Of a DNA stretch of 14,368 nucleotides, positions 1 through 14,368 are shown one piece after another. Positions within the stretch are counted from its first letter, which is position 1. Each line of letters opens with the position of its first letter. Below the pieces are notes generated by a model. It saw nothing but the letters and a program-made list of their open reading frames with translations. It searched no databases and was not told the DNA's origin. Made by a program: the position numbers and the translations under genes. Location: UHGV virus genome UHGV-0310616; one strand, written 5' to 3'. This stretch comes from a virus.

Positions 1-89
1 CATTGTGAGTTGTAGGTATTCTGGTTTTCCAGAACCATACGAATAGCGCGTTGACGAACTTCAGGGGGAAATCGGTTATGTTTTGTCAT
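1..89 (-). CDS. IS3-family transposase OrfA, N-terminal fragment (29 codons visible, runs off the window)
   Basis: Minus-strand translation from ATG at 89-87: MTKHNRFPPEVRQRAIRMVLENQNTYNSQ..., matching the conserved N-terminus of IS3-family OrfA HTH proteins (from memory). Below the ORF-track length cutoff. Confidence 0.55.
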   Translation of the reverse strand, partial: MTKHNRFPPEVRQRAIRMVLENQNTYNSQ

Positions 90-141
90 CCTGGTTACCT
101 CTCTCAAAGAGTGTAGTCTCCAGGATTACCGGGGCGGTTCA
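1..141 (-). mobile_element. Left terminus of an IS3-family insertion sequence (partial; continues beyond the window start)
   Basis: Minus strand reads TGAACCGCCCCGG... (revcomp of 129-141), a typical IS3-family terminal inverted repeat beginning with TG, followed about 50 nt later by GAGAGG RBS and ATG (89-87) opening an OrfA-like reading frame. Confidence 0.55.
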
Positions 142-1663: not shown

Positions 1664-2380
1664 ATGTCGCGCATTTCTCTTAAACTGGCTGCTGTGTTTG
1701 GTGCTAATTATCCATGCAAAGTGGCCTAAGCTACGTGGAAGAATGATCAGTTTCGCATTATTTGGTTCAAGGAGGGCTCCCCCACAGCCTCACTCTCTGA
1801 ATGCAAAACAGCCCCACAATCCCACTGTTAAAAGTCCCAGCTTGAAAATTGCACGCTTATGGTTGCCCCTCCCTCAACTCTATAGCTCGCCCGCGCCCCC
1901 GTGTGCATGTGCGTGCCCGCGCGTCAGGGGTCGCTGAGAAACCCTAAGATTTTGCTCATCCGAGACAAGCATTACAGGAGCGTGCTACTGAGCGAGATGC
2001 TGGCTGATTGCTGTTGCTGAATAACCGTGTGGGACGAGTGCTGCGATCATCTGCCTTTCACTGTGTATCTGTACATCCCTCTAAAACGATCTGTATCGCT
2101 CTGTGCTGCGTTCTGTGCTTCCAATGTGTGATTCAATGCCTTTGTGATTTCGAGATCGTGGCGGTGCCGTGCTGATCTGCTGCGTGCGCTCTACGCTGTG
2201 TTCGCTGGATGTGCCGGGGAATGCTGCTGTGGGGCGGTGCCAGTCTCTTTCGGGTATACCTGATAAAGACATAGACACACTGTCTCATTTGACTATCTAT
2301 AAAACTCTATTGACTACACATTATTGATGTGATCTCTTATAGGTCTTGCTGTGATATTTCATTGAGACTTAGGGGGAAGC

Positions 2381-3013
2381 ATGGCACACAATGCGCTTAT
2401 CTATTGCCGCGCCAGTACATCAGAGCAACACGCAGACCGGGCGCTGGGCTTGCTGCGAGAGTTCGCCAGTGATCGGGGCTGGCCTGTACGGGCGGAGTAC
2501 ATCGAGAACGCCAGCGGTGCGAGGCTGGCGCGTCCTGAACTAATGCGCTTGCTGGATGATGCGCAGGCCGGAGAGGTCTTGCTTGTCGAGAGCATCGACA
2601 GGCTAAGCCGCCTTACGCAAAAGGAATGGGCGACACTGAAACAGAGGATTCAGGATAAGGGACTGGTGATCGTTGCCGTTGACCTGCCAACCTCATGGCA
2701 ACTACTGAACGATACGGCGTCAGAGCTTACAGAGGGCATCCTGAGAGCTGTTAACGCAATGCTGATTGATATCCTCGCTACGATGGCACGAGTGGACTAC
2801 GAGACACGCAGAGCACGCCAAGCGCAGGGCATCAAGCGTGCCAAAGCCGAGGGGAAATATAACGGGAAGTCTAAGGATGAGAGCGCCCGTGAAACTGTCC
2901 GCGCTATGCTTACCGTTGGGAATAAACCAGAGCACATCATGAAAGCTGCCGGGATAAGCCGGGCAACGTTCTACCGTATCAAACGTGAGCTGTCCGCCAG
3001 CGTTACAGAGTGA
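2381..3013 (+). CDS. Small serine recombinase (resolvase/DNA invertase family), 210 aa
   Basis: N-terminal catalytic motif IYCRASTSEQ (serine nucleophile context), ESIDRLSR motif, and C-terminal HTH (GISRATFYRIKRE) laid out as in gamma-delta resolvase and Hin. GGGGGA RBS upstream. Confidence 0.9.
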   Translation: MAHNALIYCRASTSEQHADRALGLLREFASDRGWPVRAEYIENASGARLARPELMRLLDDAQAGEVLLVESIDRLSRLTQKEWATLKQRIQDKGLVIVAVDLPTSWQLLNDTASELTEGILRAVNAMLIDILATMARVDYETRRARQAQGIKRAKAEGKYNGKSKDESARETVRAMLTVGNKPEHIMKAAGISRATFYRIKRELSASVTE

Positions 3014-3454
3014 TGACCTACAGTCTGATGAGATGCCAGCACTGGCCGTTACTGGGCTGTGGGTGATGGATGGCCTACAGCTTTTGTATTGATATCAGAT
3101 ATTTATGTTATGCCTAATCTCGTAATGGTATGATTTATAATGTATTTCCGTATTACTTGCGGCTCTTGATATGAAGAGATGGCGGGGCTTTAGCCGTGCC
3201 AGACGATGAGTATCAAGATCAGATTGTGAATGTGATTTATCACTGAACAATTCGAGGGATGGGGCAGGGGAAGGGATCAAAGGCTGTGTTGTCCAATCAC
3301 TCAGCTAGATTTGAAGCAGGGCAACACCTTCGTTTTACCTTTAAAGTTGCATTTAAAATACATGTACAGAAAAGGGTTCTTCCCTTTCATCCCTTCTCCT
3401 AATCAGTGTTATCGCTTTTCGCTCTACACTGGCTGCGCTTCTCGCTATGCTCCA

Positions 3455-3497
3455 GCCCGCTCCATCGCCTTTGGCTCATTCCCGGCCTTCGCCCGCT
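3455..3497 (+). repeat. Degenerate att-core-like (tRNA 3'-end-like) repeats
   Basis: GCCCGCTCCA (3455-3464) equals the last 10 nt of the att core at 13718-13727. GGCTCATTCCCGGCCTTCGCCCGCT (3473-3497) resembles GGTTCGATTCCCTTCGCCCGCT of the core, with a 12-nt exact block CCTTCGCCCGCT. Confidence 0.3.
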
Positions 3498-3762
3498 GTG
3501 ATGCTCGGCCCTCCACGCAACCGTGCTTGCCAGGCAGTCAACGCGGCGGGGATAGAGTAGTGGTACGGTACTATATTGGGATATGGTACTCACAATGCCG
3601 CTTATAACCCCTTACATCCCAGCATCCCAACAAACCTACTGAAAGTTATCAGCAAATCATTCATCAAGTCAGACAGGGCAAGGCTTACAAAGGTGTTGAT
3701 TAAAAAATAATCAAATTAGAGTTTCTACTGTGGCAAAACGAACACCACTCGCTTGTGCATAC

Positions 3763-3830
3763 GTAGTGACCTACATGAAAGTCACTACTAAAGAGGGACA
3801 GAACATTCAACGTCACTGCTGACATGAAAT
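3763..3830. promoter_or_regulatory. Candidate operator/regulatory repeats upstream of the helicase gene
   Basis: Perfect inverted repeat GTAGTGAC (3763-3770) N10 GTCACTAC (3781-3788); third GTCACT at 3812-3817; direct repeat ACATGAAA at 3773-3780 and 3823-3830. Lies 75-140 bp upstream of ATG 3904. Confidence 0.3.
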
Positions 3831-3903
3831 TCTCTCTACGGGCAGCTCGGCGCTGCCGTCCTGCGCCTCGTTCTAAACTCACCTTAATTTTGGAGATTTC
3901 ACC

Positions 3904-5748
3904 ATGCCAACGAACCTACGCCGTTTGCTTGCGCAGGCTGCCGACGCTGACCCGCTCAATACCGCAAACGCAGATGTACAGCAAATGGTCGCTGACGGGA
4001 TTGTTATTCGGCGTTCCAAGATATGCCCGATAAAGCATAAACCCGTTAAGGCGGCATACAACACGAAGACCGAAGAGTTTTATTACAATGCTGATGGCTC
4101 CGCTATGACCCTGCGGGAATGGCGAGCGCTGCATGGTGTTCAACCGAAGAAGCAAAAACAGCGCTCTGACACGGGGTTGCGGCAAGTCATCCAGCCCGGT
4201 GACGCAATTCATTGCCGACGCGCTGAGATAGAAATGTGGCTCAACAAGAAGCCTGCTCGGTATGCTGACCCGCTGCCGCCTGATTTTCCCGGTGTTCGCG
4301 TAGATGATGCCGCATTGAAACCGCGCGAGCACGCCGTTTCGGCATCGACAACCGGGCAGAATGCTTTTCTCAAAGCCTGCCGCGAGTTCCTGATTTGTGA
4401 TGAGAAGACTATACACCGCATCAACAGGGGCATGAATAAACTGGAAGCGATGCGCAATTCAGATTTCAAACGCTACGGGGACTCAGCGGAGTTTCGTCAA
4501 TTGTGGTGTGGAGAGTCGAAACCTACCGAGGATAAATTTAACAGTACAAATCATCATTGTGACCCAAACGGCTTGGCAGTGTCGCCGTCTGTGCCGTCAC
4601 TGAATACAGCCTCTTATGAGTTTCGCCCGCTGGTTCGCTGTGACCGAAACGCACGCGTTAGCCTGTTGCCACCCGATGGGCTGGAGTGGAGGCCGGGGCA
4701 GTTGTCTGTTGCTGATGCGATCTTCTCCCGTGGTAGTGATGTGCTGGCCGTTCTGCCTACGGGTTATGGCAAGACCGCCGCCTTCGCTTATCCATTGATT
4801 TATGAGTCCCGCGCTGGCGTTGGCCTGTCTGTAATCGTGGTTCCCACTAATACCCTAAAGCGCCAGATTCTCCGCCAGTTGCGGGATGCTGGCGTTCACG
4901 CTGTGGCATTCGGTGACAAGTTGCCGAGGCACCGCAACGCTCAACAACTCGCGGGGCTGGCTGCCGGGGCGTTCCGTGTTGCTGTCGTTTCACCTGAGCA
5001 TCTTGTTCTGTCGAGTCAGGTCTTCGCGGCGCTGATGGCTTACGGCGTTGATCGTTTTATCATCGACGAAGCGCACACGGTTAAAGACTGGGATTTCCGA
5101 CCCGCTTACGAGGCCATGCAGCACTCGCTACAACATGCCTTTCTTTCGGCTCAACGCTGCGTATTTACGGCTACGCTGCTACGCGAAAATGAGCGCAGTT
5201 TAATGGCGTCGCTTGGCTGCCGTGGTGATTACGTAACATTCCGTGCTGATGTTGCTCGCGAAAATATCCAGTTGACGACAGTCAGACAGTGCCGCGAACG
5301 TTTCCGAGCGGCTATTGGTCTGGTCGAGGCTCTGCCGAAAGAAGAGAAGACGCTCATTCTCGTCAATGACCTTAAGACGTTGCGGGCGTACCTGAAACTC
5401 TTAGGCGACCGGGCGCGCCCATATCACTCGAAGACGATGCACTTGAGTAACGAAGAACGCCACGCAAACGCTGAGTGGTTTGCCACTACGCCGGGCGCAA
5501 TTCTGATTGCTACTAAAGCCTTCGGGCTGGGGGCTGATGTGCCAGACATTCGCAACGTCATCGTTACATATATTCCTGATGACCTGCCTGACCTCATTCA
5601 GATGATTGGACGAGCCGGGCGCGATGGTCAACCTGCCCGCGCGTTTCTGCTGTGGTCATCGCTGGCGCTGGATGCTGCGCCTGATGAGCTTGCTTACTTC
5701 TACCGCCCTGAAAACTGCAACTGGCAGTACATCGCTAAATACCTCTGA
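3904..5748 (+). CDS. RecQ-family (SF2) DNA helicase with a roughly 260-aa N-terminal extension of unknown function
   Basis: Motif I LPTGYGKTAAF; motif II IIDEAHTVKDWDFRPAY (RecQ-type DEAH...DFRP); motif III FTATL; motif V/VI ATKAFGLGADVPDIRNVI...GRAGRDGQPA. WRPGQ precedes motif I as in RecQ. No RQC/HRDC-like tail. GGAG RBS. Confidence 0.9.
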   Translation: MPTNLRRLLAQAADADPLNTANADVQQMVADGIVIRRSKICPIKHKPVKAAYNTKTEEFYYNADGSAMTLREWRALHGVQPKKQKQRSDTGLRQVIQPGDAIHCRRAEIEMWLNKKPARYADPLPPDFPGVRVDDAALKPREHAVSASTTGQNAFLKACREFLICDEKTIHRINRGMNKLEAMRNSDFKRYGDSAEFRQLWCGESKPTEDKFNSTNHHCDPNGLAVSPSVPSLNTASYEFRPLVRCDRNARVSLLPPDGLEWRPGQLSVADAIFSRGSDVLAVLPTGYGKTAAFAYPLIYESRAGVGLSVIVVPTNTLKRQILRQLRDAGVHAVAFGDKLPRHRNAQQLAGLAAGAFRVAVVSPEHLVLSSQVFAALMAYGVDRFIIDEAHTVKDWDFRPAYEAMQHSLQHAFLSAQRCVFTATLLRENERSLMASLGCRGDYVTFRADVARENIQLTTVRQCRERFRAAIGLVEALPKEEKTLILVNDLKTLRAYLKLLGDRARPYHSKTMHLSNEERHANAEWFATTPGAILIATKAFGLGADVPDIRNVIVTYIPDDLPDLIQMIGRAGRDGQPARAFLLWSSLALDAAPDELAYFYRPENCNWQYIAKYL

Positions 5749-5786
5749 GTCGAAAGGCTCCCCCTCATTCTCTGGAGTTAATCCAT

Positions 5787-6224
5787 ATGCCTGTTACCGA
5801 ACATGCGCAGCGTCGTGCTACGCGTGCGGATGCGCTCGTCACCGCACAACTTGCCTTCGCCCTGAACGGATATTCCTTCGATGGGTTAGCTGAGCGCCAC
5901 CGCCAGACTCTTAATCGTGCGGCCATCTTGCGCCAAGCTGGTACGCCGCTACAGCGGTATTGCCTGCTCAATCACTGTGAGCCTTGGGAATGTCTGGCCG
6001 CTGTGCTGAATAGATTCCGACGCCGGGAGGATGGCGCTCGTCTTTGGCCGACCTATCGCATGGCTCGTGAGGTCTTTAATGGGACTGTTCACCCTGCCAA
6101 CAAGACGCGCGACGAGATATTTCAATCTGTGCAGCGTCGCCTCTTTTTACCAAAACCAGTACACGCCGAAGTAATCCAGTACCTGCGCGTAATGGGGCTG
6201 ACAGGAGTTAATCCGCATGACTAA
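5787..6224 (+). CDS. Hypothetical protein, 145 aa
   Basis: ATG with GGAG RBS (GGAGTTAATCCATATG). First of a chain of overlapping, translationally coupled ORFs. No domain recognised. Confidence 0.7.
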   Translation: MPVTEHAQRRATRADALVTAQLAFALNGYSFDGLAERHRQTLNRAAILRQAGTPLQRYCLLNHCEPWECLAAVLNRFRRREDGARLWPTYRMAREVFNGTVHPANKTRDEIFQSVQRRLFLPKPVHAEVIQYLRVMGLTGVNPHD

Positions 6225-6423
6225 AACCGAGTTTGAAAATGAAACGTGGCGAATGAAAGGCTTGCTTCTTGGGGCGCTAATCCGCCGCCTTGAGGAAGAC
6301 AAGGCTGGTGAGTCGCGCATGGCCGCAGCGGAGTTATCCAGTGCGGTCAACTTCCTTAAGGCCAATGCCGTAGAAGCGCCGGACACGTCATTTAACCGTG
6401 TATTTGAGGATGACGAGCAATGA
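6217..6423 (+). CDS. Hypothetical protein, 68 aa
   Basis: ATG preceded by the same RBS context (GGAGTTAATCCGCATG); overlaps the end of the upstream ORF and the start of the next. Confidence 0.6.
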   Translation: MTKTEFENETWRMKGLLLGALIRRLEEDKAGESRMAAAELSSAVNFLKANAVEAPDTSFNRVFEDDEQ

Positions 6424-6596
6424 CACCCGCAGAGTTTAGAGCATGGTTTGCAACCCTGCCGCCGAACTATCAGAGCGCAGCACGAGCCATGTATGAAAGC
6501 GCCCGCAAGACGGGAACACACACCGCTTCCAGCCTGCTACTCATTCGCACGCTGATTGAAGATCAAATCAATTTCGATGGAGACTTTACCTTATGA
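6420..6596 (+). CDS. Hypothetical protein, 58 aa (not in the supplied ORF track)
   Basis: ATG 6420 overlaps upstream stop (ATGA), stop overlaps the next ATG at 6593 (ATGA). Translation MTPAEFRAWFATLPPNYQSAARAMYESARKTGTHTASSLLLIRTLIEDQINFDGDFTL. Fills an otherwise unexplained gap in a coupled operon. Confidence 0.5.
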   Translation: MTPAEFRAWFATLPPNYQSAARAMYESARKTGTHTASSLLLIRTLIEDQINFDGDFTL

Positions 6597-7156
6597 CAGT
6601 TCTGAGCCTGACCGATATCCAGCGCATCAATACCCTCGTTAAGCGCGACCTTCGCAATGTGGAAGAGGTAGTCGCTGCAACCGGATTTGACCCGGAGGAC
6701 GTTGACGCGGTGCTGCGCGGCGTTTATGTAGCCGACCTTGCCAACCAGTGGAGGGATGAAGCCGCTATTACGCTGGAGGAATACAACGCCATCCGTAAGC
6801 GCTGGAAACCGGGGCGCGGCCACTGGGACACTGCACATGCCATTGCACGCGATTTTCTAATTCGGCCTGAAACTGTGCTGGCTATCGTCCATTCCCGCTT
6901 TAGCAACGCCCACACCCACCCGATGCCGAAAGCAGTTAAAGCAAAGCCTGAGAAACCGCAGACGATGCGCCGCCTGTTGAGCGCCGACCTCGATCAGATG
7001 CACAAGCTGGAGCGCTTCGGCTGGAAACAAACCGAGATCGCTGGGGAGCTTGGGATCTCTGCTGAGGCTGTTGCTCATGTCCTGCGCCTGATGCGTAGCA
7101 AGTGGTCTTATCCAGATATTTTGGAAGACGTTAACACGCGATTCGGGGCTAAGTGA
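6593..7156 (+). CDS. HTH-containing protein, 187 aa (regulator or possible small-terminase-like DNA-binding protein)
   Basis: C-terminal segment GWKQTEIAGELGISAEAVAHVL resembles a sigma-70 region 4 / LuxR-type helix-turn-helix. Coupled to flanking ORFs. Confidence 0.7.
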   Translation: MTVLSLTDIQRINTLVKRDLRNVEEVVAATGFDPEDVDAVLRGVYVADLANQWRDEAAITLEEYNAIRKRWKPGRGHWDTAHAIARDFLIRPETVLAIVHSRFSNAHTHPMPKAVKAKPEKPQTMRRLLSADLDQMHKLERFGWKQTEIAGELGISAEAVAHVLRLMRSKWSYPDILEDVNTRFGAK

Positions 7157-7389
7157 TGGCAGAGAACGAACCGCTGCACCCTGCCGTTAACCCTGATCTC
7201 TATGTGAACCTTGACGAACAGCGCGAGGGATACGCCCCGTTTGAATCACGCGGCTGGGATGTGCTGACACAGAACCTGTCCGGGGAAGGGCGAACTGATC
7301 CCGGCCAAGCACCAAACCAGAATCCAAGGCAGCGACCGCGTGGCTCCGTTGGCGAGCGACGTTGGTTGCGTCGTCATGGCCTTATCTAA
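7156..7389 (+). CDS. Hypothetical protein, about 77 aa
   Basis: ATG 7156 overlaps upstream stop TGA (TGATG); track start 7153 is GTG. Confidence 0.55.
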   Translation: MAENEPLHPAVNPDLYVNLDEQREGYAPFESRGWDVLTQNLSGEGRTDPGQAPNQNPRQRPRGSVGERRWLRRHGLI

Positions 7390-7403
7390 CTGAGGATTAT
7401 TTC

Positions 7404-7643
7404 ATGAGCACCATTATTTTAATGGAGCCACGCCGCGCGGCTGATTGCGGGCAACAACTGAAATTCATTGCCGAAGCCTTGAATCTTCGTCAAATCGATT
7501 TGGCTCATGTGTACCAGATCGACAGACAAGATCTCGGCAAAGCGTACCACGGACAGAAGATGATTCCTGCCCGATGCGTACACGCGCACATGCTTTTACT
7601 TGAACTGGCACATCGCCGAGTTACATCACAAGAGGTTGCATAA
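7404..7643 (+). CDS. Hypothetical protein, 79 aa
   Basis: ATG 7404 preceded by GAGGAT RBS; the track's longer 7362 start has no RBS. Confidence 0.6.
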   Translation: MSTIILMEPRRAADCGQQLKFIAEALNLRQIDLAHVYQIDRQDLGKAYHGQKMIPARCVHAHMLLLELAHRRVTSQEVA

Positions 7644-7645
7644 TC

Positions 7646-8332
7646 ATGGCTGACCAGAATGTTAATCCGTACCTTTCGGGCGCTGATACTGCGCCGCAGC
7701 AATCGCCGTACATGGCCGCACCTGTAGGCGCTGACAACGGCGCTAGCAGATTCGACCAGACAACACCTGATGCTGATTTCCTGAAAACGCAGCCAGCGAA
7801 CATTAATCAAAGCTGGAACGAAAGTAACTTTGCCAACCAGCAAGACCAGCAGATTGATGTTGCTGCGCAAGTGGGCGACACGCTGCAATTACAGGATGGC
7901 ACTACTGTTGAGTTGACTCCTGAACTTCATGGGCTGATGGGGCAGTTTCACCAGTCTGTCGAAAGCCAGCTAGGGCAGGGGACAGTTGACGCGATGTTGC
8001 AGTACGCTGGCACGCTCGACGCCGGGACGCAATCAACCCTTGAACGGATGGTTATGTCTGGCGACCCTGCGCAGATGCAGCGGGCGGTTCATTATCTGCA
8101 AGAGCGTATGGTCGCAGGCACTGCGACTGGTTATGTCCCATCACAGGGGAACCCATACGGCCAGCCTGCCTCGCAACCTGTTGGTATGTCTCATGCTGAG
8201 TTTATTGCAGCGTATGATCAGCTTTCGCAGTGGGCGCAGCAATCAGGGTATGGCCCCGGCCATCGCCAGTACGACGATCAATACCGCGCTCTGGTTGCGC
8301 AGCGCTCCGCTGGCAAACGCGCTGGCCGTTAA
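7646..8332 (+). CDS. Q/N-rich acidic protein, 228 aa; putative capsid scaffolding protein
   Basis: Low-complexity Gln/Asn/Asp-rich protein encoded two genes upstream of the capsid gene, echoing the scaffold-capsid order of T7-like phages. Function is inferred from position and composition only. Confidence 0.6.
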   Translation: MADQNVNPYLSGADTAPQQSPYMAAPVGADNGASRFDQTTPDADFLKTQPANINQSWNESNFANQQDQQIDVAAQVGDTLQLQDGTTVELTPELHGLMGQFHQSVESQLGQGTVDAMLQYAGTLDAGTQSTLERMVMSGDPAQMQRAVHYLQERMVAGTATGYVPSQGNPYGQPASQPVGMSHAEFIAAYDQLSQWAQQSGYGPGHRQYDDQYRALVAQRSAGKRAGR

Positions 8333-8491
8333 GCAATCGCCTGTCCTGTCTTCCCCACGTCTTAACCTTACGTTTTAGAGCCTGAATCGCGTTGTACATC
8401 GCCAGATGTACATTCGTATACCTGCACCTGTAAAACGCGAAATTACCTCTCAAACACCACACATAAACCCACTTTGCATTGAGATCTGACA

Positions 8492-8839
8492 ATGACCTTA
8501 CTGACACCTGAAAACGTGGCAGCGGCTAGGGCTGCCCGTAGCGCGAGGATTGAACACTGGAAAGCCAACGCCAGCCAGCTTAAGCAGGACTTTGCTGACG
8601 AAGCGCACTGGCGGCGGCTCGCCTCACGCTTCGGCGTGCGTATGCCCTCGGCGTATGTTCCCGGCTCCGAGCTGCGATTGCTGCGCCGGGCGGCCAAACG
8701 CGCGGGCATCTCTGGTGCTGATATGCGCGATGCTTTTGGTGGGGGCGTTGCGCACCTGCACGAGCTTAATCCCCATTGGCCTGCCTTCGCGCTTATCGGC
8801 CTGATTCTTGAGATCGCGGCTGAAAAAGCTGCTGCCTGA
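8492..8839 (+). CDS. Hypothetical protein, 115 aa
   Basis: ORF between the putative scaffold and capsid genes; same strand and GC content as neighbours. Confidence 0.6.
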   Translation: MTLLTPENVAAARAARSARIEHWKANASQLKQDFADEAHWRRLASRFGVRMPSAYVPGSELRLLRRAAKRAGISGADMRDAFGGGVAHLHELNPHWPAFALIGLILEIAAEKAAA

Positions 8840-8907
8840 TTCATCCCATTCTCTTTTCCCCTTTTCCATAAATCGCGCTGGCTAACGCTGGCGCGGGAGC
8901 TATTTCT

Positions 8908-9903
8908 ATGACTGACAATGTTTATACCCCTGACCAATTCCGCCCGCACTGGGGCGGTGTAGATGCTGACAACGACATTCACATTGAAGCGTATGACCGG
9001 GACGTTCAGACCCGCCTTGAGGCAAAGAGCGTGTTTCTCGCCGAGGGGCTGAGCACATACAAGCCGCTGAAAAACAGTAATCAGTATCGTGTAGACCGCC
9101 TGAGCGGAGATCTGGAGGTGAAGGGCAGAACCGCAGGGCAATCGCTGGAGCCTACCGCCGTTAAGTCGGACAAGCTGATTATCTCTGTGGATACGCTGAG
9201 CTATATCCGCATCCCGATTGACTATCAAGACGACTGGACAGCGCCCACCTTTCGCGCAGAGCTGAGCCGCAACATGGGGACAGCCCATGCAAAGTTCTAC
9301 GACGAAGCGCACACTATCCAGCTAATCAAAGCGACTGACTTTGTACCGCCGCCTACGTTGCAACCAACGTTTAACCCGCTGACGGATAATGTTGTCTCGC
9401 TCGACCTGACAACGGGGAGCGAAGAGGATGCGGCTAACGAACTGGTTCACGCTATTAAAGCTGCTGTTAATCGATTCCTAACTGAAAAAGATATTCCGGT
9501 GGCGGAGCTGTGCCTTCTCATCGACCCAGCTTGGTTCAGCATCCTGATGGAACATAAGAAGTTGATGAACGTCCGTTACAGCCGGGATAGTGGCAATGAT
9601 TACGCATGGCGTCGCGTTGGCTATGTCGCTGGGGTGCGAGTTATTGAGCTGAACAGTTACCCGCAGGAAGCCATTACCGCGCATGAACTGGGCGCTGATT
9701 ATGATGTGACCGCAGGGGAAGCGCTGACACGGGCGACGCTGTTCCGGCCTGCGTCTGTACTTGTGACAGTCGAAGCGCAGAGCGTTATCAATCGCCAGTG
9801 GGATGATGAACGCGAAATGACAATGGTGATGGACTCATATCGCCTGTTCAATGTTGGGCTGCGCCGCCCTGACTGCGTTATAAATTTCCGACAAGCTGCA
9901 TAA
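8908..9903 (+). CDS. Major capsid protein, T7 gp10-like family (HK97 fold), 331 aa
   Basis: GGGAG RBS. By recollection of T7 gp10, several blocks align: KLIISVDTL...IDYQDD...RAEL...G...A...DEA, DPAWFSIL...VRY, and the C-terminal ...Y...GLRRP...VINF matching T7 ...Y...GLRPE...VVF. Size also fits. Not verified by search. Confidence 0.6.
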   Translation: MTDNVYTPDQFRPHWGGVDADNDIHIEAYDRDVQTRLEAKSVFLAEGLSTYKPLKNSNQYRVDRLSGDLEVKGRTAGQSLEPTAVKSDKLIISVDTLSYIRIPIDYQDDWTAPTFRAELSRNMGTAHAKFYDEAHTIQLIKATDFVPPPTLQPTFNPLTDNVVSLDLTTGSEEDAANELVHAIKAAVNRFLTEKDIPVAELCLLIDPAWFSILMEHKKLMNVRYSRDSGNDYAWRRVGYVAGVRVIELNSYPQEAITAHELGADYDVTAGEALTRATLFRPASVLVTVEAQSVINRQWDDEREMTMVMDSYRLFNVGLRRPDCVINFRQAA

Positions 9904-9919
9904 CAAAAGGGGCCGAGCC

Positions 9920-10447
9920 ATGAATATTGATGCTTATGCCCCGGAGCTGTTGCGCTCTTTGTTTCGGTACGATGCGAAGACTGGCCGCCTGTTCCATGCA
10001 GTAGACCGGATCGGAGCCAACAAGCGGATTTACGCTAAAGCCGGGGAACTGGCCGACACGGTAACGGACAGCGCCGGATATAGGCGCGTATCTGTCCGCA
10101 TCAATGGCAAATCTCATGCGCTATACGCCCACCGTGTCGCCTTCATCATTGCTAATGACGGTATCCCTGCCGGGATGCAAATCGACCATATCAACGCGGT
10201 ACGCGATGACAACCGCCTTATCAATCTCCGCACGGTTACGCCACAAGAGAACCAGCACAATTACCGCAAAGCCAAGGGTTATAGCCACCATGCCTGCTCT
10301 GGCAGATGGGAGGCTTACATTCGCGTTGGTGGTGTTCGCCATCACCTCGGCTTATTCACTACCGAAGCGGCGGCGCGTGCTGCGTACCTGAAAGCTAAAG
10401 CCAGATACCATCCGTCAACGCCAGCCGATTTATTGCAGGCTGCCTAA
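9920..10447 (+). CDS. HNH endonuclease with C-terminal AP2-like DNA-binding domain, 175 aa
   Basis: HNH signature HRVAF...QIDHINAVRDDNRLINLRTVTPQENQHN (His, Asn, Asn, His core) followed by W-EAYIRVGGVRHHLGLFTTEAAARAAY, typical of the AP2 domain attached to phage HNH nucleases. Confidence 0.8.
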   Translation: MNIDAYAPELLRSLFRYDAKTGRLFHAVDRIGANKRIYAKAGELADTVTDSAGYRRVSVRINGKSHALYAHRVAFIIANDGIPAGMQIDHINAVRDDNRLINLRTVTPQENQHNYRKAKGYSHHACSGRWEAYIRVGGVRHHLGLFTTEAAARAAYLKAKARYHPSTPADLLQAA

Positions 10448-10465
10448 TCCTCGGAGGTTCCATTA

Positions 10466-10891
10466 ATGGCTGATGAAAAGCCGATTAGAGCGCTGGCAGA
10501 TGATGACCCGCGCCGCCAGCGGTACGCTGAACTGTTGGCGCAGGCTGGCCGCATGACTATTCCACGGCTGCATCCGGGCGATGCTAACAGTGTTATGAGT
10601 CAGCTTGCGACAATGCTCGGAGCACCTGTCCCGATAGTAGGTGCTATGACTGAGCACGCCGCTGCATGGCGTGCCTGTCTTCTGGAGCAAGGGCTTGGTG
10701 ATCTTCTGGATGGCTTGAGTAAGCAGGTGCTGACCATCTTCTTTCTGCTCTGCTGGAGAGACAGCGCCTTGCGATTGGCGGGTAAGCAAAAGGAACGGTT
10801 TGCAGCGGCCAGCGAGGGTTTGACCATTGAGCAATACCGGGCAATGCACCCGGCTTACAGAGAGGATAAAGAAAATGATAACCACGATTAA
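10466..10891 (+). CDS. Hypothetical protein, 141 aa
   Basis: GGAGG RBS upstream of ATG 10466. No domain recognised. Confidence 0.7.
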   Translation: MADEKPIRALADDDPRRQRYAELLAQAGRMTIPRLHPGDANSVMSQLATMLGAPVPIVGAMTEHAAAWRACLLEQGLGDLLDGLSKQVLTIFFLLCWRDSALRLAGKQKERFAAASEGLTIEQYRAMHPAYREDKENDNHD

Positions 10892-11174
10892 ATTAAGGTG
10901 GCGGTACATCGAGCCGCCACCAATGACTGGCGCACTCGCTGACCTGAAACAGTGGGTAATGGATACCGGAGAGCCTGAGCTTGAAGCTAAATTTCGTAAG
11001 CTGCTGGGGCTGATGCGCCGCAATGGTATCAGTGACGAACGTGTTAATGCGATGGCCGCCGAGCTTTATGCTCTGGTATGCCAACGCCAGCGCGAAGAAT
11101 ACGAAGCCTGCAAACGGGCTGCATCTGACAGTGGAGGCTTTGAATCATGGTTACACGGACAGACCAACTACTAA
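10875..11174 (+). CDS. Hypothetical protein, 99 aa
   Basis: ATG 10875 with AGAGGA RBS 8 nt upstream (track start 10827 is TTG). Overlaps the upstream gene by 17 nt. Confidence 0.6.
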   Translation: MITTIKLRWRYIEPPPMTGALADLKQWVMDTGEPELEAKFRKLLGLMRRNGISDERVNAMAAELYALVCQRQREEYEACKRAASDSGGFESWLHGQTNY

Positions 11175-11584
11175 GAAAAGCGATGCGAGGCTATCTGGAA
11201 TATCTCGGCAACATGCCGCTAGCGGAACGCATTAAAAATTCTGCTGCGTTCGATGATGTGTATCACTTCCTGTTGAATGGTTCAGGACGGCTGGAGTTGC
11301 GCCGCGCTGATGTGGCCGCTGTCCGTGTCTTCCTGTGGAATTATCAATACCGACGCTGCGCGGTGACAGCTAAGCCGCTACGCCTCGCGTCTGCTGTATT
11401 GGATCACTGTCACCGAACTGGACGTGTGCGCGCTGTGGTTCATCGTTCGGCCAATGCAGCGGAAGGTGGTTATTATGTGGGAAATTTGTGCGGACTCTCA
11501 CGAGGTAGCATGTTAAGCATGCTACCTGCCTACCGCCGACAATACAAGGGGTTGGGCGTTATTTATCCAAGACAACATGCGTGA
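11147..11584 (+). CDS. Hypothetical protein, 145 aa
   Basis: GGAGG RBS; overlaps the end of the upstream ORF. Last gene of the GC-rich block. Confidence 0.65.
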   Translation: MVTRTDQLLRKAMRGYLEYLGNMPLAERIKNSAAFDDVYHFLLNGSGRLELRRADVAAVRVFLWNYQYRRCAVTAKPLRLASAVLDHCHRTGRVRAVVHRSANAAEGGYYVGNLCGLSRGSMLSMLPAYRRQYKGLGVIYPRQHA

Positions 11585-11670
11585 TGAGATTATTTCTTTT
11601 ATTTTCATTCGGTTATGTGTTGTTGTGGCTGCCTTGTTACTTGCCTATATTTAAAACAATTCTTGACGGA

Positions 11671-11700
11671 TTGACGTAGATTGCGTAGGCTGAGCATAAA
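11671..11700 (+). promoter_or_regulatory. Candidate sigma-70 promoter for the AT-rich two-gene cassette
   Basis: Tandem TTGACG hexamers (11664-11669 and 11671-11676), then an 18-bp spacer and CATAAA (11695-11700), about 85 nt upstream of ATG 11786. Confidence 0.3.
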
Positions 11701-11785
11701 ACAGTTTCCTAATATGTCTCCAAACTGAGCTTCAACTTGAGAATACTTCGTTCCTACATCTCCCTTGAAGGGGTAGGAGGATAAT

Positions 11786-11995
11786 ATGAACTTTGATATG
11801 CGTACAAACCAAAATTGTGCATCGTTTTTTAACCCAGCAACCAAGGCGTTTGTCGTCGTTGATTCGTTTGACAACTACGAATTCGATGTGCGTGCTGGTA
11901 CTTTATCACGCACTGAATTTGTAGGCACCATCACAGCTTCAAACGATGAAGAGTTGAACAAGAAATTAGCTGAGATCACGGCTGCACACATATGA
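11786..11995 (+). CDS. Hypothetical small protein, 69 aa; first gene of an AT-rich cargo pair
   Basis: Strong AGGAGG RBS. AT-rich, in contrast to the upstream block. Stop overlaps the next ATG (ATGA). Confidence 0.65.
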   Translation: MNFDMRTNQNCASFFNPATKAFVVVDSFDNYEFDVRAGTLSRTEFVGTITASNDEELNKKLAEITAAHI

Positions 11996-12366
11996 TAACT
12001 CAACAGCAGATTGATGATTTAGTTGCAGATATTAACGATATCTTGGAAGAAGATAGAGCCAAGCTAAAGATGTCATTTCATTTTGCTGTTGATAGACTTA
12101 ATGATCCGCGTAATAAACCTCCAATCACGTTAGCTGAGTTGAGAGTGATTTTTACAAATTTCATTGGACAACACTTGCAGACAATTCTAGGCAAAGATGA
12201 GGGATTTTCCTTCACTATCAAGTGTCAGAAATCTGGTATTGCTATACCGTGCGCTATAGAGCATGAACTTGATATCGGTGCAAAGTGGGTAGTTCAGCAA
12301 GTGATCACCATCATGCGGAATCCGCAGTTTAACGCGTATCATGGTGATGTCATCTTTGATGTTTAA
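11992..12366 (+). CDS. Hypothetical protein, 124 aa; second gene of the AT-rich cargo pair
   Basis: Translationally coupled to the 69-aa ORF and followed directly by a terminator. No confident domain assignment. Confidence 0.7.
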   Translation: MITQQQIDDLVADINDILEEDRAKLKMSFHFAVDRLNDPRNKPPITLAELRVIFTNFIGQHLQTILGKDEGFSFTIKCQKSGIAIPCAIEHELDIGAKWVVQQVITIMRNPQFNAYHGDVIFDV

Positions 12367-12370
12367 AAGA

Positions 12371-12392
12371 AAGGCGCTATAGCGCCTTTTTT
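12371..12392. terminator. Bidirectional rho-independent terminator between convergent genes
   Basis: Stem AAGGCGC (12371-12377), loop TATA, stem GCGCCTT (12382-12388), preceded by an A-run and followed by a T-run; sits between the cargo operon (+) and the integrase (-). Confidence 0.6.
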
Positions 12393-13611
12393 ATAAACAC
12401 GGATAACTGACCAACTCCACATACTCCCATAGTTCTTTCATCCCTGCTCCCTTGCTATATGTCCTGAAAGCTTCCGTTTTAGCTTTTTGTTCGGTATGCC
12501 CGGTTATTGCCCCTATGCGCTGTTCTGGTACTCCTGCTCTGTCTAAGCAAGTAATAAAGTGACCACGCAGGGAGTGGAAGCATTGGCGATCTGTAGCCGC
12601 TGACAGCACGCGACGGCGTAGCCGTGTAAATGCCTGCGAGTACCACGGGCCACGCTTACCGTCGGCACGTTTAATCTTGTTCGATTGGGGGAGCAGGTAT
12701 TCACCGTTGTTCTGCGCAAGGTATTTATCAACGATGCTGATTAACAGCGAGTGTATGGGGACGTGCCTTACACCCGCTTTAGTTTTAGATTTGCTGACGT
12801 AGAAGCAGCGTACCCCTTCAACTTTGATAATCTCAACTCGTTTGATGCTGGCGATTTCGTCGAGACGCATACCGGAATACAAACCGATTATGATTACGTC
12901 TCGTATCTCGCTACCTGCCTCTTTTATTAATGCCTGTAGCTGGTGTAGTTCAAAAGGTTGATAACTTTCGTTCGTCTGGCGGGCTTCCAGATTGTGGCCG
13001 TGAAAGGGATTATCAGGGGCGATATTGTCATATTTACGCCGGGCGAAGTCATACAGCGTCCCTAAGCAGGTTAACCAGTTTTGCAGCGTCTGGCGGGAAA
13101 ACTTATCTTGGTTCGCTTCCAGAAAGTCAGAGACGAGCCGCCGCCCGATTCCATTTATTGTAATGGTTGGGCGTTTTATTGAATTAGTAAATGCCGATAC
13201 AGCGCGAACTGATTTACTCAGCGTGGAATAAGAGCGCCGATCTTTGTATTGCTCTGCATATTCTTTACTGACATCTGTCAATTTTGGTGATGCTGGTTTT
13301 CCCCGCTCTGCTGGAATAGTTGCGGGTGTGGTAATGCTGCTGGATACCCCCGCCAGCAAGTGAAGATCTGTTACAGCGGAATGAATCCGGGTAATGGGGT
13401 TATCCGGTTTCATCATGAGCTGTAGCTTACGGAACTCTAATAAATATTGGTCACGGAAAATGCGAGCTTGCATGATGTCCCGTGTGCCTGTCGATTTCTT
13501 GAGCGAGCGCCGCCCGTTCCAGAGGTGGCGCATGTAGACCGGAATATAGATTTGAAAGATGAATATCCCATCTTTGTTTGCATAAAGATAAGAAGTCTTC
13601 TTGATTGGCAT
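12391..13611 (-). CDS. Tyrosine-type site-specific integrase, about 406 aa
   Basis: C-terminal catalytic region with HSLRGHF...GHT...RTYSK (His/Arg/His/Tyr arrangement of tyrosine recombinases); sits beside a tRNA-derived att core. Probable ATG start at 13611 (MPIKK...) with AAGG upstream; the track's 13641 start is TTG. Confidence 0.85.
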   Translation of the reverse strand: MPIKKTSYLYANKDGIFIFQIYIPVYMRHLWNGRRSLKKSTGTRDIMQARIFRDQYLLEFRKLQLMMKPDNPITRIHSAVTDLHLLAGVSSSITTPATIPAERGKPASPKLTDVSKEYAEQYKDRRSYSTLSKSVRAVSAFTNSIKRPTITINGIGRRLVSDFLEANQDKFSRQTLQNWLTCLGTLYDFARRKYDNIAPDNPFHGHNLEARQTNESYQPFELHQLQALIKEAGSEIRDVIIIGLYSGMRLDEIASIKRVEIIKVEGVRCFYVSKSKTKAGVRHVPIHSLLISIVDKYLAQNNGEYLLPQSNKIKRADGKRGPWYSQAFTRLRRRVLSAATDRQCFHSLRGHFITCLDRAGVPEQRIGAITGHTEQKAKTEAFRTYSKGAGMKELWEYVELVSYPCL

Positions 13612-13699
13612 GGTAATTACCTTGTAATCTACCGCTACCAACTACCGGGATAAGTACCGCGATTACTTATTTTGGTTCACAATTCATAGGGTTAGCAAA

Positions 13700-13727
13700 G
13701 AGGGTTCGATTCCCTTCGCCCGCTCCA
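13700..13727 (+). other. attR core: 28-bp copy of the 3' end of tRNA-Gly (glyU-type, CCC anticodon), not a complete tRNA
   Basis: GAGGGTTCGATTCCCTTCGCCCGCTCCA contains the T-arm (GGTTCGATTCC), the 3' acceptor strand and CCA, matching the E. coli glyU 3' end from memory. Upstream sequence is not tRNA-like. Confidence 0.7.
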
Positions 13728-13960
13728 ATTTATCTTCACCTCATCAATCTGCCATTTTTGCTGTATCTGATTTTCTATATTATCTTAATTCAATCGCTTC
13801 AGACTTTTCGCAATCGCCGTAATATTTCCCCATTTTGTTGTAAATAAAAAGCGTTTACGCAATGCAATCCTTTTGTAACAACCCAGGTAAAACACCTTAT
13901 TTTCAAGTTGTTAAATAAGTGGTTATCTACGCTTTTAACAAACGATTGATGGAATATTTT

Positions 13961-14259
13961 ATGAAAGGGAAATCTGCATTAACTCTTCTGCTCGCTGGTA
14001 TATTTTCGTGCGGCACATGCCAGGCGACAGGGGCAGAAGTGACGAGTGAATCTGTATTTAACATTCTTAATTCCACGGGGCAGCAACAGATAAAAGTTAT
14101 TTATCGTTAAATCCAGATAAGTACCCTAATTATCGTCTTCTGATTCACTCAGCCAAATTAAAAAATGAAATAAAGAGCCACTATACCAAAGACGAAATTC
14201 AAGGGTTGTTAACATTAACAGAAAACACGGCTTTGTTGAATAAATCAGATTTCGGGTAA
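13961..14259 (+). pseudogene. Small secreted/lipoprotein-like gene, apparently frameshifted
   Basis: ATG 13961 gives MKGKSALTLLLAGIFSCGTCQATGAEV... (signal-peptide-like) and stops at 14110; a second frame is open from 14071 to 14259 with coding-like composition but no start codon. The two overlap near a G4 run (14077-14080). Confidence 0.3.
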
Positions 14260-14284
14260 GTCTCCCCCGTAGCGGGTTGTGTTT

Positions 14285-14368
14285 TCAGGCAATACGCACG
14301 CTTTCAGGCATACCTGCTTTCGTCATTTTGTTCAGCGCTCGTACCAGGGCCATAGCCTCCGCAACCTG
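14285..14368 (-). CDS. 3' end of an unidentified convergent gene (partial, continues beyond window end)
   Basis: Minus-strand frame open to the window edge: ...QVAEAMALVRALNKMTKAGMPESVRIA, stop at 14287-14285. A weak hairpin (CCCG-TAG-CGGG, 14265-14275) lies between the convergent genes. Confidence 0.35.
   Translation of the reverse strand, partial: QVAEAMALVRALNKMTKAGMPESVRIA

What the first reader, a model, noticed from the sequence alone, without database searches (positions are those of the whole stretch)
11585..12392. AT-rich two-gene cassette beside the integrase: candidate defence or toxin-antitoxin cargo
Two coupled ORFs (69 and 124 aa) with their own candidate promoter, a strong RBS and a dedicated terminator lie between the last GC-rich core gene and the integrase, and are sharply AT-rich relative to the core. 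That position is where P4-like satellites and prophages accumulate anti-phage or addiction modules. Neither protein shows a domain I can name.
Basis: inference. Interest (0 to 1): 0.65.

Follow-up and report, generated by a model that had tools for sequence, protein, structure and literature searches.

The report
RegB-like RNase cassette beside integrase
A small, AT-rich two-gene cassette sits in the swappable cargo slot next to the integrase of a phage-satellite-like island in E. coli. It most likely encodes a toxic RNA-cutting enzyme and its small protein inhibitor, an uncharacterised toxin-antitoxin or anti-phage module rather than a core gene of the island.

Summary
Two translationally coupled genes, A (69 aa, 11786-11995) and B (124 aa, 11992-12366), have a strong Shine-Dalgarno site (SD), a weak but positionally conserved promoter and a strong bidirectional terminator. 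The cassette is 39.5% GC against 54% in the island core. Both genes are under purifying selection (dN/dS 0.04-0.14).

The slot between the endonuclease-VII-like gene and the integrase is a cargo hotspot. In 16 related islands read it is empty or holds type II restriction-modification systems, AbiTii, a YafO toxin pair or other unknown genes. Only 1 of 59 E. coli genomes carrying the island core has A-B. The same A-B unit also occurs in unrelated capsid-bearing islands, two epsilon15-like phages, a conjugative plasmid, and alone beside deoD.

Best reading: an RNase toxin with a protein inhibitor, serving addiction or abortive infection. Function is untested.

The parts
11585..11785 (+). Upstream non-coding region of the cassette. 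It holds a candidate sigma-70 promoter (-35 TTGACG 11663-11668, 17-nt spacer, -10 TAGGCT 11686-11691), the 5' UTR and the SD AGGAGG at 11775-11780.
   Evidence: Read from the sequence. The -35, spacing and -10 are conserved in L008 and L025. The -35 and spacer are also shared with the YafO-type cassette of sister islands, and divergence starts at about 11688. The consensus scan did not call this promoter.
11786..11995 (+). Gene A: a 69-aa acidic protein (pI 4.6) with a four-strand sheet followed by a C-terminal helix. Proposed inhibitor (antitoxin or immunity protein) of B.
11992..12366 (+). Gene B: a 124-aa protein with a predicted RegB/RelE-like (BECR) endoribonuclease fold. Proposed toxin or effector.
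12367..12392 (.). Bidirectional intrinsic terminator between the convergent stop codons of B and int.
   Evidence: dG -20.1 kcal/mol, z -7.0. Palindrome I1.
11147..11584 (+). Left boundary of the slot (not part of the cassette): the endonuclease-VII-like last backbone gene.
   Evidence: Pfam Endonuclease_7 at 3e-06 and phrog_423 at 2.9e-15. Conserved in all related islands.
12391..13611 (-). Right boundary of the slot (not part of the cassette): the tyrosine integrase, 406 aa.
   Evidence: Pfam Phage_integrase and phrog_1. The 406-aa gene call comes from identical loci. Integrases 87-92% identical sit directly against the endoVII-like gene where the slot is empty.

Best explanation
The cassette is a moron-type accessory unit: a promoter, two coupled genes and a terminator, with foreign base composition. 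It occupies the variable integrase-proximal cargo slot of a capsid-encoding, satellite-like island.

Gene B encodes a metal-independent endoribonuclease of the RegB/RelE (BECR) fold. It belongs to a so far unannotated domain family that lytic phages carry on its own or fused into large multidomain proteins. Gene A encodes a small acidic protein. It is made first and in excess, through the strong SD and translational coupling, and it binds and neutralises B, in the way barstar, colicin immunity proteins and type II antitoxins neutralise their nucleases.

In the carrier cell the pair would be inert. If A is depleted, whether by loss of the element or by shutdown of host gene expression during phage infection, B would cleave mRNA and arrest growth. 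That outcome stabilises the element or aborts the infection.

Shown here: the anatomy of the cassette, its cargo status, the turnover of the slot, the mobility of A-B as a unit, purifying selection on both genes, and the predicted fold of B.

Inferred only: RNase activity of B, inhibition of B by A, and the addiction or defence phenotype.

My estimates for each step: accessory cargo in a defence hotspot 0.95; B has a BECR-fold RNase structure 0.65; A is the inhibitor of B 0.45; the cassette gives an anti-phage or addiction phenotype 0.3-0.35.
For: Cargo and hotspot:
- The slot content differs among 16 related islands. It can be empty, or hold type II R-M (two kinds), AbiTii, a YafO-family toxin with a small upstream ORF, a DUF3606 pair, or unknown genes.
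- The cassette is in 1 of the 59 complete E. coli genomes that carry the island core, out of 5426 genomes searched.
- GC is 39.5% against 54% in the core.

Mobility as a unit:
- A-B always has the same sizes (69-73 aa and 124-125 aa) and the same 4-bp overlap.
- It occurs in two other, unrelated Phage_cap_E islands, in two Uetakevirus phages, in an Aeromonas conjugative plasmid, and alone beside deoB/deoD.
- dN/dS is 0.04-0.14 for both genes.

Fold of B:
- Foldseek independently matches a protein annotated 'site-specific RNA endonuclease', the name also given to annotated RegB homologues (E 3.6e-5).
- hhalign places B H30-x3-D34-R35 on RegB H48-x2-D51-R52, where H48 is catalytic (PMC3014915).
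- The family invariants include His30 and Thr106, with Arg40 and Arg109. [quoted passage not shown]
- Like the PBECR domains, the B domain occurs alone in phages and inside multidomain proteins.

A as inhibitor:
- A sits upstream, is coupled to B, and is uniformly acidic (pI 4.1-4.8).
- A is detected only next to the B clade carried long-term by temperate or integrated elements. It is not found next to the lytic-phage homologues examined.
- In the Aeromonas plasmid copy, B is split by an IS5 element while A is intact.
- In sister islands the same promoter-proximal position, in the same orientation, holds a small ORF followed by a YafO-family toxin.
Against: - There is no sequence-level link to any nuclease or toxin family. 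Pfam, NCBIfam, PADLOC and a PDB sequence search all found nothing. The hhalign comparison with RegB reaches only 13% probability.
- The B model was built from a 6-sequence alignment. Its pLDDT is 76.9, and the other four models scored 55-66. I could not check whether the conserved residues cluster in three dimensions.
- This clade of B is mildly acidic (pI 4.9-6.5), whereas RegB is basic at 8.6.
- A has no recognisable DNA-binding domain, so classical type II autoregulation is not expected. Its structural matches are weak and heterogeneous.
- The lytic-phage homologues examined lack A. B may therefore not be toxic on its own.
- The promoter is weak by consensus.
- I found no experimental data. 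A search for 'RegB-like' returned nothing, though I did not search the literature for the A or B families by any other name.
Confidence: 0.45

Rival explanations
1. B is a RegB-like regulatory RNase that the mobile element uses in its own lytic or induction programme, not a toxin held in check. It might inactivate helper-phage or host early mRNAs, as T4 RegB cuts GGAG in Shine-Dalgarno sites. A would be a modulator, chaperone or specificity factor.
For: The closest structure is RegB itself. Most of the B-domain family examined lies in lytic, T4-like phage contigs among small early-type genes and without A. RegB has no known antitoxin (PMC3014915). In the Uetakevirus phages the pair follows an antirepressor-like gene on the same strand.
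Against: The pair has its own promoter and terminator, and it runs convergent to int rather than sitting inside the island's operons. Islands with the same backbone and integrase do without it. It also occurs alone in a chromosome beside deoD, with no phage genes nearby. It shares its slot with R-M, AbiTii and YafO cargo.
Confidence: 0.2
2. The pair is a counter-defence module. B would be a PBECR-like RNase that destroys RNA components of host or rival immunity, such as crRNA, retron ncRNA or ToxI-type antitoxin RNA. A would be a second anti-defence protein or a regulator.
For: Iyer et al. proposed this role for phage BECR RNases in polyvalent proteins (PMC5512222). The B domain is fused to Zeta-toxin-like, nucleotidyltransferase and HNH domains in large proteins. 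The weak structural matches of A include phage-encoded inhibitors and an anti-CRISPR.
Confidence: 0.1
3. The pair is a moron of unrelated function, such as superinfection exclusion or a host-physiology modifier, and B is not a nuclease. In that case the RegB/RelE resemblance would be a generic small alpha+beta similarity in a medium-confidence model.
For: There is no HMM or profile support for any nuclease family. The model has moderate pLDDT from a shallow alignment. B is acidic in this clade.
Against: Two independent structure-search methods and libraries converge on RegB and 'site-specific RNA endonuclease'. The runner-up matches are consistently BECR toxins. The invariant polar residues (H30, R40, N41, T106, R109) are conserved across family members as little as 22% identical to B.
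Confidence: 0.2

Closest known systems
Phage T4 endoribonuclease RegB (PDB 2hx6)
   Different: No significant sequence similarity: hhalign probability is 13% and no Pfam model matches. The second catalytic His of RegB (H68) has no conserved counterpart in B. RegB is basic, 153 aa, found in lytic phage, and has no known inhibitor. B is 124 aa, mildly acidic, carried by integrated elements, and paired with A.
Type II toxin-antitoxin modules with RelE/ParE-superfamily (BECR-fold) toxins, e.g. RelBE, HigBA, YafNO
   Different: Neither protein matches any Pfam, NCBIfam or PADLOC family; the specific toxin and antitoxin models were not checked individually. A has no RHH, HTH, Phd or AbrB DNA-binding domain and is an all-beta-plus-helix acidic protein. 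In that respect it is closer to barstar or a colicin immunity protein than to a classical antitoxin.
PBECR domains of phage polyvalent proteins (Iyer et al. 2017, PMC5512222)
   Same: A predicted BECR RNase with a conserved His and Ser/Thr. It is found both alone in phages and embedded in large multidomain proteins.
   Different: No family reached E <= 1 for B itself, and no PBECR or MuF_C model appeared among the 25 Pfam families most often matched by the 35 family members. The only match is one sub-threshold MuF_C hit in a distant multidomain relative. The fusion partners seen here (CTP_transf_like, DUF5824, Zeta_toxin, DUF3008) are not the MuF or portal fusions described as the simplest PBECR architectures.
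psu-int defence hotspot of P4-like satellites (Rousset et al. 2022, PMC9122126), including gop-beta-cII
   Same: A variable slot next to the integrase of a satellite, holding R-M, Abi and TA-like cargo. Many alternative arrangements occur at one locus.
   Different: The island here is not P4-like. No Psu, Sid, Delta or alpha-primase-type hit was found; instead it has its own major head protein, a scaffold-like protein, an HNH, a RecQ-like helicase and a serine recombinase.

Membership tests
Type II TA with RelE/ParE-superfamily toxin | Two-gene operon: small antitoxin gene adjacent to or overlapping the toxin gene | tested here: met
   A (69 aa) and B (124 aa) overlap by ATGA. The arrangement is kept in all 20 intact copies examined.
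Type II TA with RelE/ParE-superfamily toxin | Toxin matches a known BECR toxin family profile (RelE, ParE, HigB, YoeB, YafQ, YafO and others) | tested here: not met
   No Pfam, NCBIfam or PADLOC family at E <= 1 for B. No such family appeared among the 25 Pfam families most often matched by the 35 family members.
Type II TA with RelE/ParE-superfamily toxin | BECR fold of the toxin | tested here: inconclusive
Type II TA with RelE/ParE-superfamily toxin | Antitoxin with a DNA-binding domain that autoregulates the operon | tested here: not met
   A has no Pfam domain. Its confident model (pLDDT 92.7) is a four-strand sheet plus a helix, and no RHH, HTH, Phd or AbrB match was found.
Type II TA with RelE/ParE-superfamily toxin | Toxin arrests growth and the antitoxin neutralises it by direct binding | not testable with these tools
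   Needs expression and binding experiments. No complex prediction was available.
T4 RegB endoribonuclease family | Sequence homology to RegB | tested here: not met
   No Pfam hit. hhalign of the B family against an 8-member RegB alignment gives probability 13%, E 0.002.
T4 RegB endoribonuclease family | RegB fold, including the extra N-terminal helix | tested here: met
T4 RegB endoribonuclease family | Catalytic His48 and His68 | tested here: inconclusive
   The invariant H30 of B aligns with H48 in both hhalign runs. B has no conserved equivalent of H68. H68 is itself not invariant among the RegB homologues aligned here.
T4 RegB endoribonuclease family | GGAG-specific cleavage stimulated by ribosomal protein S1 | not testable with these tools
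   Biochemical property (PMC1702504 abstract).
PBECR (phage BECR RNase) domains | Match to the PBECR1-5 or MuF_C profiles | tested here: not met
   No Pfam family for B itself, and none of these profiles appeared among the 25 families listed for the 35 members. One distant multidomain relative gives MuF_C at E 0.0062, below the cut-off.
PBECR (phage BECR RNase) domains | [quoted passage not shown] | tested here: inconclusive
   H30 and T106 are invariant in 35 diverse members. I could not verify their placement on the corresponding structural elements.
PBECR (phage BECR RNase) domains | Occurs alone in phages and inside multidomain (polyvalent) proteins | tested here: met
   Solo copies occur in T4-like contigs. 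Fusions occur with CTP_transf_like, DUF5824, Zeta_toxin, DUF3008 and HNH.
Known anti-phage defence systems (PADLOC-DB v2.0.0) | Protein matches a defence-system model | tested here: not met
   No PADLOC family for A or B at E <= 1. The same library recognises the R-M and AbiTii cargo of sister islands.
Moron / accessory cargo of a mobile element | Own promoter and terminator, deviant composition, present or absent among otherwise collinear relatives | tested here: met
   The promoter is a candidate only.
P4-like satellite (psu-int hotspot) | P4 backbone genes (psu, sid, delta, alpha primase-helicase) | tested here: not met
   Pfam, PHROG and NCBIfam scans of most of the larger ORFs in the window gave a major head protein, a scaffold-like protein, HNH, endoVII, a RecQ-like helicase, a serine recombinase and an integrase, and no P4-type functions.

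The most novel reading that the evidence does not exclude
A RegB-type endoribonuclease domain, otherwise found in lytic phage genomes without a partner, has been captured together with a dedicated small acidic protein inhibitor. The pair now forms a self-contained mobile cassette that works as a new toxin-antitoxin or abortive-infection family in satellite and prophage cargo slots. If so, A would be the first 'anti-RegB-like' inhibitor, a partner whose existence was raised as a possibility for T4 RegB (PMC3014915). The B domain, with 364 cluster representatives and no Pfam model, would be a large unrecognised BECR RNase family spanning lytic phages and multidomain proteins.
Probability: 0.3. 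Interest if true: 0.65.

Novelty: new member of a known kind. Interest (0 to 1): 0.5.

Why it matters
If correct, this adds an uncharacterised RNase-plus-inhibitor pair to the list of small anti-phage or addiction modules. It links the long-studied T4 regulator RegB structurally to a much wider phage domain family that has no annotation. It also identifies a second satellite type, capsid-encoding and not P4-like, whose integrase-proximal slot behaves as a defence hotspot holding R-M, AbiTii, YafO and several unknown genes. That slot is a cheap place to look for further systems, and the claims can be tested directly with two small clones. If B proves to cut RNA at specific sequences, it could also be useful as a reagent.

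Tried and rejected
- Sequence-based naming failed. Pfam, NCBIfam and PADLOC found nothing for A or B. PDB sequence and profile searches found nothing for B or A. Pfam on 35 family members gave only scattered chance hits. All database names are 'hypothetical protein'.
- The Foldseek afdb50 library was unavailable.
- Type III (ToxIN-like) or other RNA-based systems were rejected. There are no tandem repeats and no Rfam family above threshold; the sub-threshold hits only reflect the terminator hairpin.
- A regulatory 5'-UTR hairpin was considered. Every copy can pair the SD of A with upstream bases, but the folding z-scores of -0.06 to -1.2 are unremarkable, so nothing is claimed.
- An A-B fusion protein (P0021) looked like 'Rosetta stone' evidence for a physical interaction. 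The underlying Pseudomonas plasmid locus turned out to be a decayed copy, with a frameshift in A and a premature stop in B. It was rejected as evidence.
- An excisionase or recombination-directionality role for A or B was rejected. Islands with 87-92% identical integrases have no A-B, and A is acidic and beta-rich.
- I first took the window to be NZ_LR536431.1. In fact it matches the GCA_900450495.1 type (L004) over 1786-14368 at 99.99% identity. LR536431 has a deletion and an IS1 in the 5' end of int.
- The antisense ORF 11605-11874 (89 aa) has only a chance-level Pfam hit (E 0.083) and overlaps the promoter, so I treat it as spurious.

Full report
**1. What is in the sequence**

The window is an E. 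coli chromosomal segment. It is 99.99% identical to GCA_900450495.1 over 1786-14368. It carries a roughly 12-kb island with the following genes:

- a serine recombinase (2381-3013)
- a RecQ-like helicase (3904-5748)
- a scaffold-like protein (7646-8332)
- a major head protein (8908-9903; phrog_267, 2.8e-67)
- an HNH endonuclease (9920-10447)
- an endonuclease-VII-like protein (11147-11584)
- a convergent tyrosine integrase (12391-13611)

Between the last two genes lie gene A (11786-11995, 69 aa) and gene B (11992-12366, 124 aa), which overlap by ATGA. A is preceded by AGGAGG 5 nt upstream of its ATG. B is followed by a GC-rich hairpin and a T6 run at 12367-12392. That hairpin has dG -20.1 kcal/mol and z -7.0, and it abuts the integrase stop codon, so it can terminate transcription in both directions.

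The consensus scan found no + strand promoter. However, TTGACG-17-TAGGCT at 11663-11691 is conserved in position upstream of A-B in two other genomic contexts.

The cassette is 39.5% GC, against 54.1% for the island core.

**2. Both ORFs are real genes**

- A matches phrog_14630 (3.6e-39) and B matches phrog_14518 (4.1e-65). Both families have unknown function.
- The exact proteins occur on 862 contigs (A) and 779 contigs (B). They are named 'hypothetical protein' wherever a source gives a name.
- Across four contexts with saturated synonymous divergence, dN/dS is 0-0.13 for A and 0.04-0.14 for B.

**3. The pair is cargo and the slot is a hotspot**

Of 5426 complete E. coli genomes, 59 carry the capsid-to-endoVII backbone at 85-90% identity. 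Only one carries the cassette, even under sensitive blastn.

I read the endoVII-to-integrase interval in 8 further E. coli loci from those 59 genomes (6 distinct arrangements) and in 8 islands from Trabulsiella, Enterobacter, Kosakonia and Kluyvera. The contents were:

| Slot content | Loci |
|---|---|
| Empty | L014, L047 |
| Type II REase + C5-methyltransferase | L040, L041 |
| Eco47II-like REase + MerR-fused C5-methyltransferase | L046 |
| AbiTii | L043, L044 |
| 300-aa hypothetical protein, not scanned | L016 (E2348/69) |
| YafO-family toxin preceded by an unannotated ~52-aa ORF | L019, L020 |
| DUF3606 protein + 92-aa protein | L015 |
| Unknown 214-aa protein | L017, L018, L045 |
| Unknown 201-aa protein | L042 |

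The A-B island and the YafO-type island share the intergenic DNA up to and including the -35 box and the spacer. They diverge at about 11688. This behaviour matches the psu-int hotspot of P4-like satellites (PMC9122126). The island here is not P4-like, however.

**4. A-B moves as a unit**

The same two genes, with the same sizes and the same overlap, occur in several other settings:

- next to the integrase of two other capsid-bearing (Phage_cap_E) islands, one in Enterobacteriaceae (L008, L011) and one in Yersinia enterocolitica (L021-L024)
- in 2 of 50,697 phage records, both epsilon15-like Uetakevirus (L002, L003)
- on the Aeromonas conjugative plasmid pS44-1 beside qnrVC6, where A is intact and B is split by an IS5 element (L049)
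- as a decayed copy on a Pseudomonas megaplasmid (L048)
- alone beside deoB/deoD with no mobile-element genes nearby (L025, L026)

Homology between the window and the L008 island begins at 11672, inside the promoter, and runs through the cassette into the 3' half of int.

**5. What B looks like**

The AlphaFold2 model has pLDDT 76.9 and pTM 0.73 from a shallow alignment. Its order of elements is: N-terminal helix, short strand, short helix, long helix, then an antiparallel sheet.

- Foldseek against viral models independently finds a phage protein annotated 'site-specific RNA endonuclease' (E 3.6e-5). Annotated RegB homologues carry the same name.
- RegB is a cyclizing RNase with catalytic H48 and H68. 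It has the RelE/YoeB fold plus an extra N-terminal helix (PMC3014915).
- Profile-profile alignment of the B family with RegB homologues is weak, at 13% probability. It nevertheless places the invariant H30-x3-D34-R35 of B on H48-x2-D51-R52 of RegB.

An exhaustive HMM search finds 364 cluster representatives of the B domain and no Pfam model. The invariant residues are H30, R40, N41, T106, R109 and F113. The His and Thr among them fit the configuration described as common in BECR RNases (PMC5512222).

Distant members sit in T4-like lytic phage contigs near uvsW, uvsY and RNA ligase genes, or are fused to CTP_transf_like, DUF5824, Zeta_toxin, DUF3008 or HNH domains.

**6. What A looks like**

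A is uniformly acidic, with pI 4.1-4.8. An HMM search of all loci fetched up, plus the two plasmid loci, detects A only immediately upstream of the enterobacterial, Aeromonas and Pseudomonas clade of B. It never appears beside the lytic-phage homologues examined.

**7. Interpretation**

The best-supported reading is a self-contained RNase-toxin and protein-inhibitor module carried as swappable cargo, acting in addiction or abortive infection. It resembles type II TA modules, and in the nature of A it resembles barnase-barstar or colicin-immunity pairs.

Three lines support it: the fold of B, the architecture of the pair, and the other occupants of the slot.

Several points weaken it:

- B has no sequence-level link to any nuclease family.
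- The confidence of the B model is only moderate.
- B is mildly acidic.
- A has no DNA-binding domain.
- Lytic phages carry B-like genes without A.

Three rivals remain:

- B is a RegB-like regulatory RNase used in the element's own programme (0.2).
- The pair is a counter-defence RNase module (0.1).
- The pair is a moron of unrelated function, and the fold match is not informative (0.2).

**8. Novelty and verdict**

Neither protein belongs to any curated family or defence catalogue tested. A full-text search for 'RegB-like' returned nothing; I did not search the literature for either family under other names. The predicted mechanism is a known kind, so I rate this as a new member of a known kind with moderate interest (0.5).

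Its interpretation as candidate defence or TA cargo is supported as a candidate, and I can now attach a specific, testable mechanism to it.

Noticed in passing
window 2381-13611: The host element is a roughly 12-kb satellite-like island. It encodes its own major head protein and a scaffold-like protein, plus an HNH endonuclease, an endoVII-like protein, a RecQ-like helicase, a serine recombinase and a tyrosine integrase. No portal, terminase or protease HMM hit was found. Its core is present in 59 of 5426 complete E. coli genomes, including EPEC E2348/69. I did not work out which satellite family it belongs to.
   Followed up: partly
L040 5484-7635; L046 5472-7504; L043 5468-6391; L044 5468-6370; L019 6789-7440: Sister islands carry two different type II R-M systems, AbiTii, and a YafO-family toxin with an unannotated ~52-aa upstream ORF in the same integrase-proximal slot. 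Other sister islands carry uncharacterised 201-aa and 214-aa genes and a DUF3606 + 92-aa pair. These are further candidates for unknown defence genes.
   Followed up: partly
window 11663-11691 versus L019 and L008: The -35 box and spacer of the candidate promoter are shared by the A-B cassette and the YafO-type cassette of sister islands. They are also shared with the A-B copy in an unrelated island. Sequence diverges at the -10. The exchange breakpoint therefore lies inside the promoter.
   Followed up: partly
window 11750-11780 and the equivalent positions in L008, L021, L025, L002, L003: Every A-B copy can form a short hairpin whose 3' arm covers the Shine-Dalgarno site of A, with different stem sequences in different lineages. 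The folding energies are not better than those of shuffled sequence (z -0.06 to -1.2).
   Followed up: yes
L049 1497-3285 (Aeromonas salmonicida pS44-1); L048 2757-3270 (Pseudomonas silvicola megaplasmid): Two plasmid copies of the pair are decayed. In pS44-1, A is intact and B is split by an IS5 element, beside qnrVC6. In the Pseudomonas copy, A is frameshifted and B has a premature stop. The gene call there looks like an A-B fusion (P0021) but is a pseudogene.
   Followed up: yes
P0035, P0049, P0051, P0057, P0070, P0075, P0117, P0098, P0104, P0086: The B domain occurs at the N- or C-terminus of 400-1250-aa metagenomic proteins, together with CTP_transf_like, DUF5824, Zeta_toxin/AAA_33, DUF5754, DUF3008 or HNH domains. 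These architectures resemble polyvalent proteins, but I did not examine them further.
   Followed up: partly
window 1-141, 2968-3516 and 4749-7646: The island varies structurally between strains. L009 and L013 lack 4749-7646, which runs from the 3' part of the helicase to the scaffold-like gene. NZ_LR536431.1 lacks 2968-3516 and has an IS1 inserted in the 5' end of int. Window bases 1-141 match none of these relatives and cut short a 259-aa gene, of which only 139-522 remains.
   Followed up: partly
window 9920-10447: An HNH-AP2 homing-endonuclease-like gene lies directly after the capsid gene. Nucleotide alignments to sister islands break at about 9955-10150 inside this gene, which suggests a locally variable or exchanged segment.
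   Followed up: no
L034 524-567 (Citrobacter phage Merlin): In phage Merlin the gene immediately downstream of regB (vs.1 in other T4-like phages) is annotated 'RegB site-specific RNA endonuclease-like'. This hints at a RegB paralogue next to regB in that phage.
   Followed up: no
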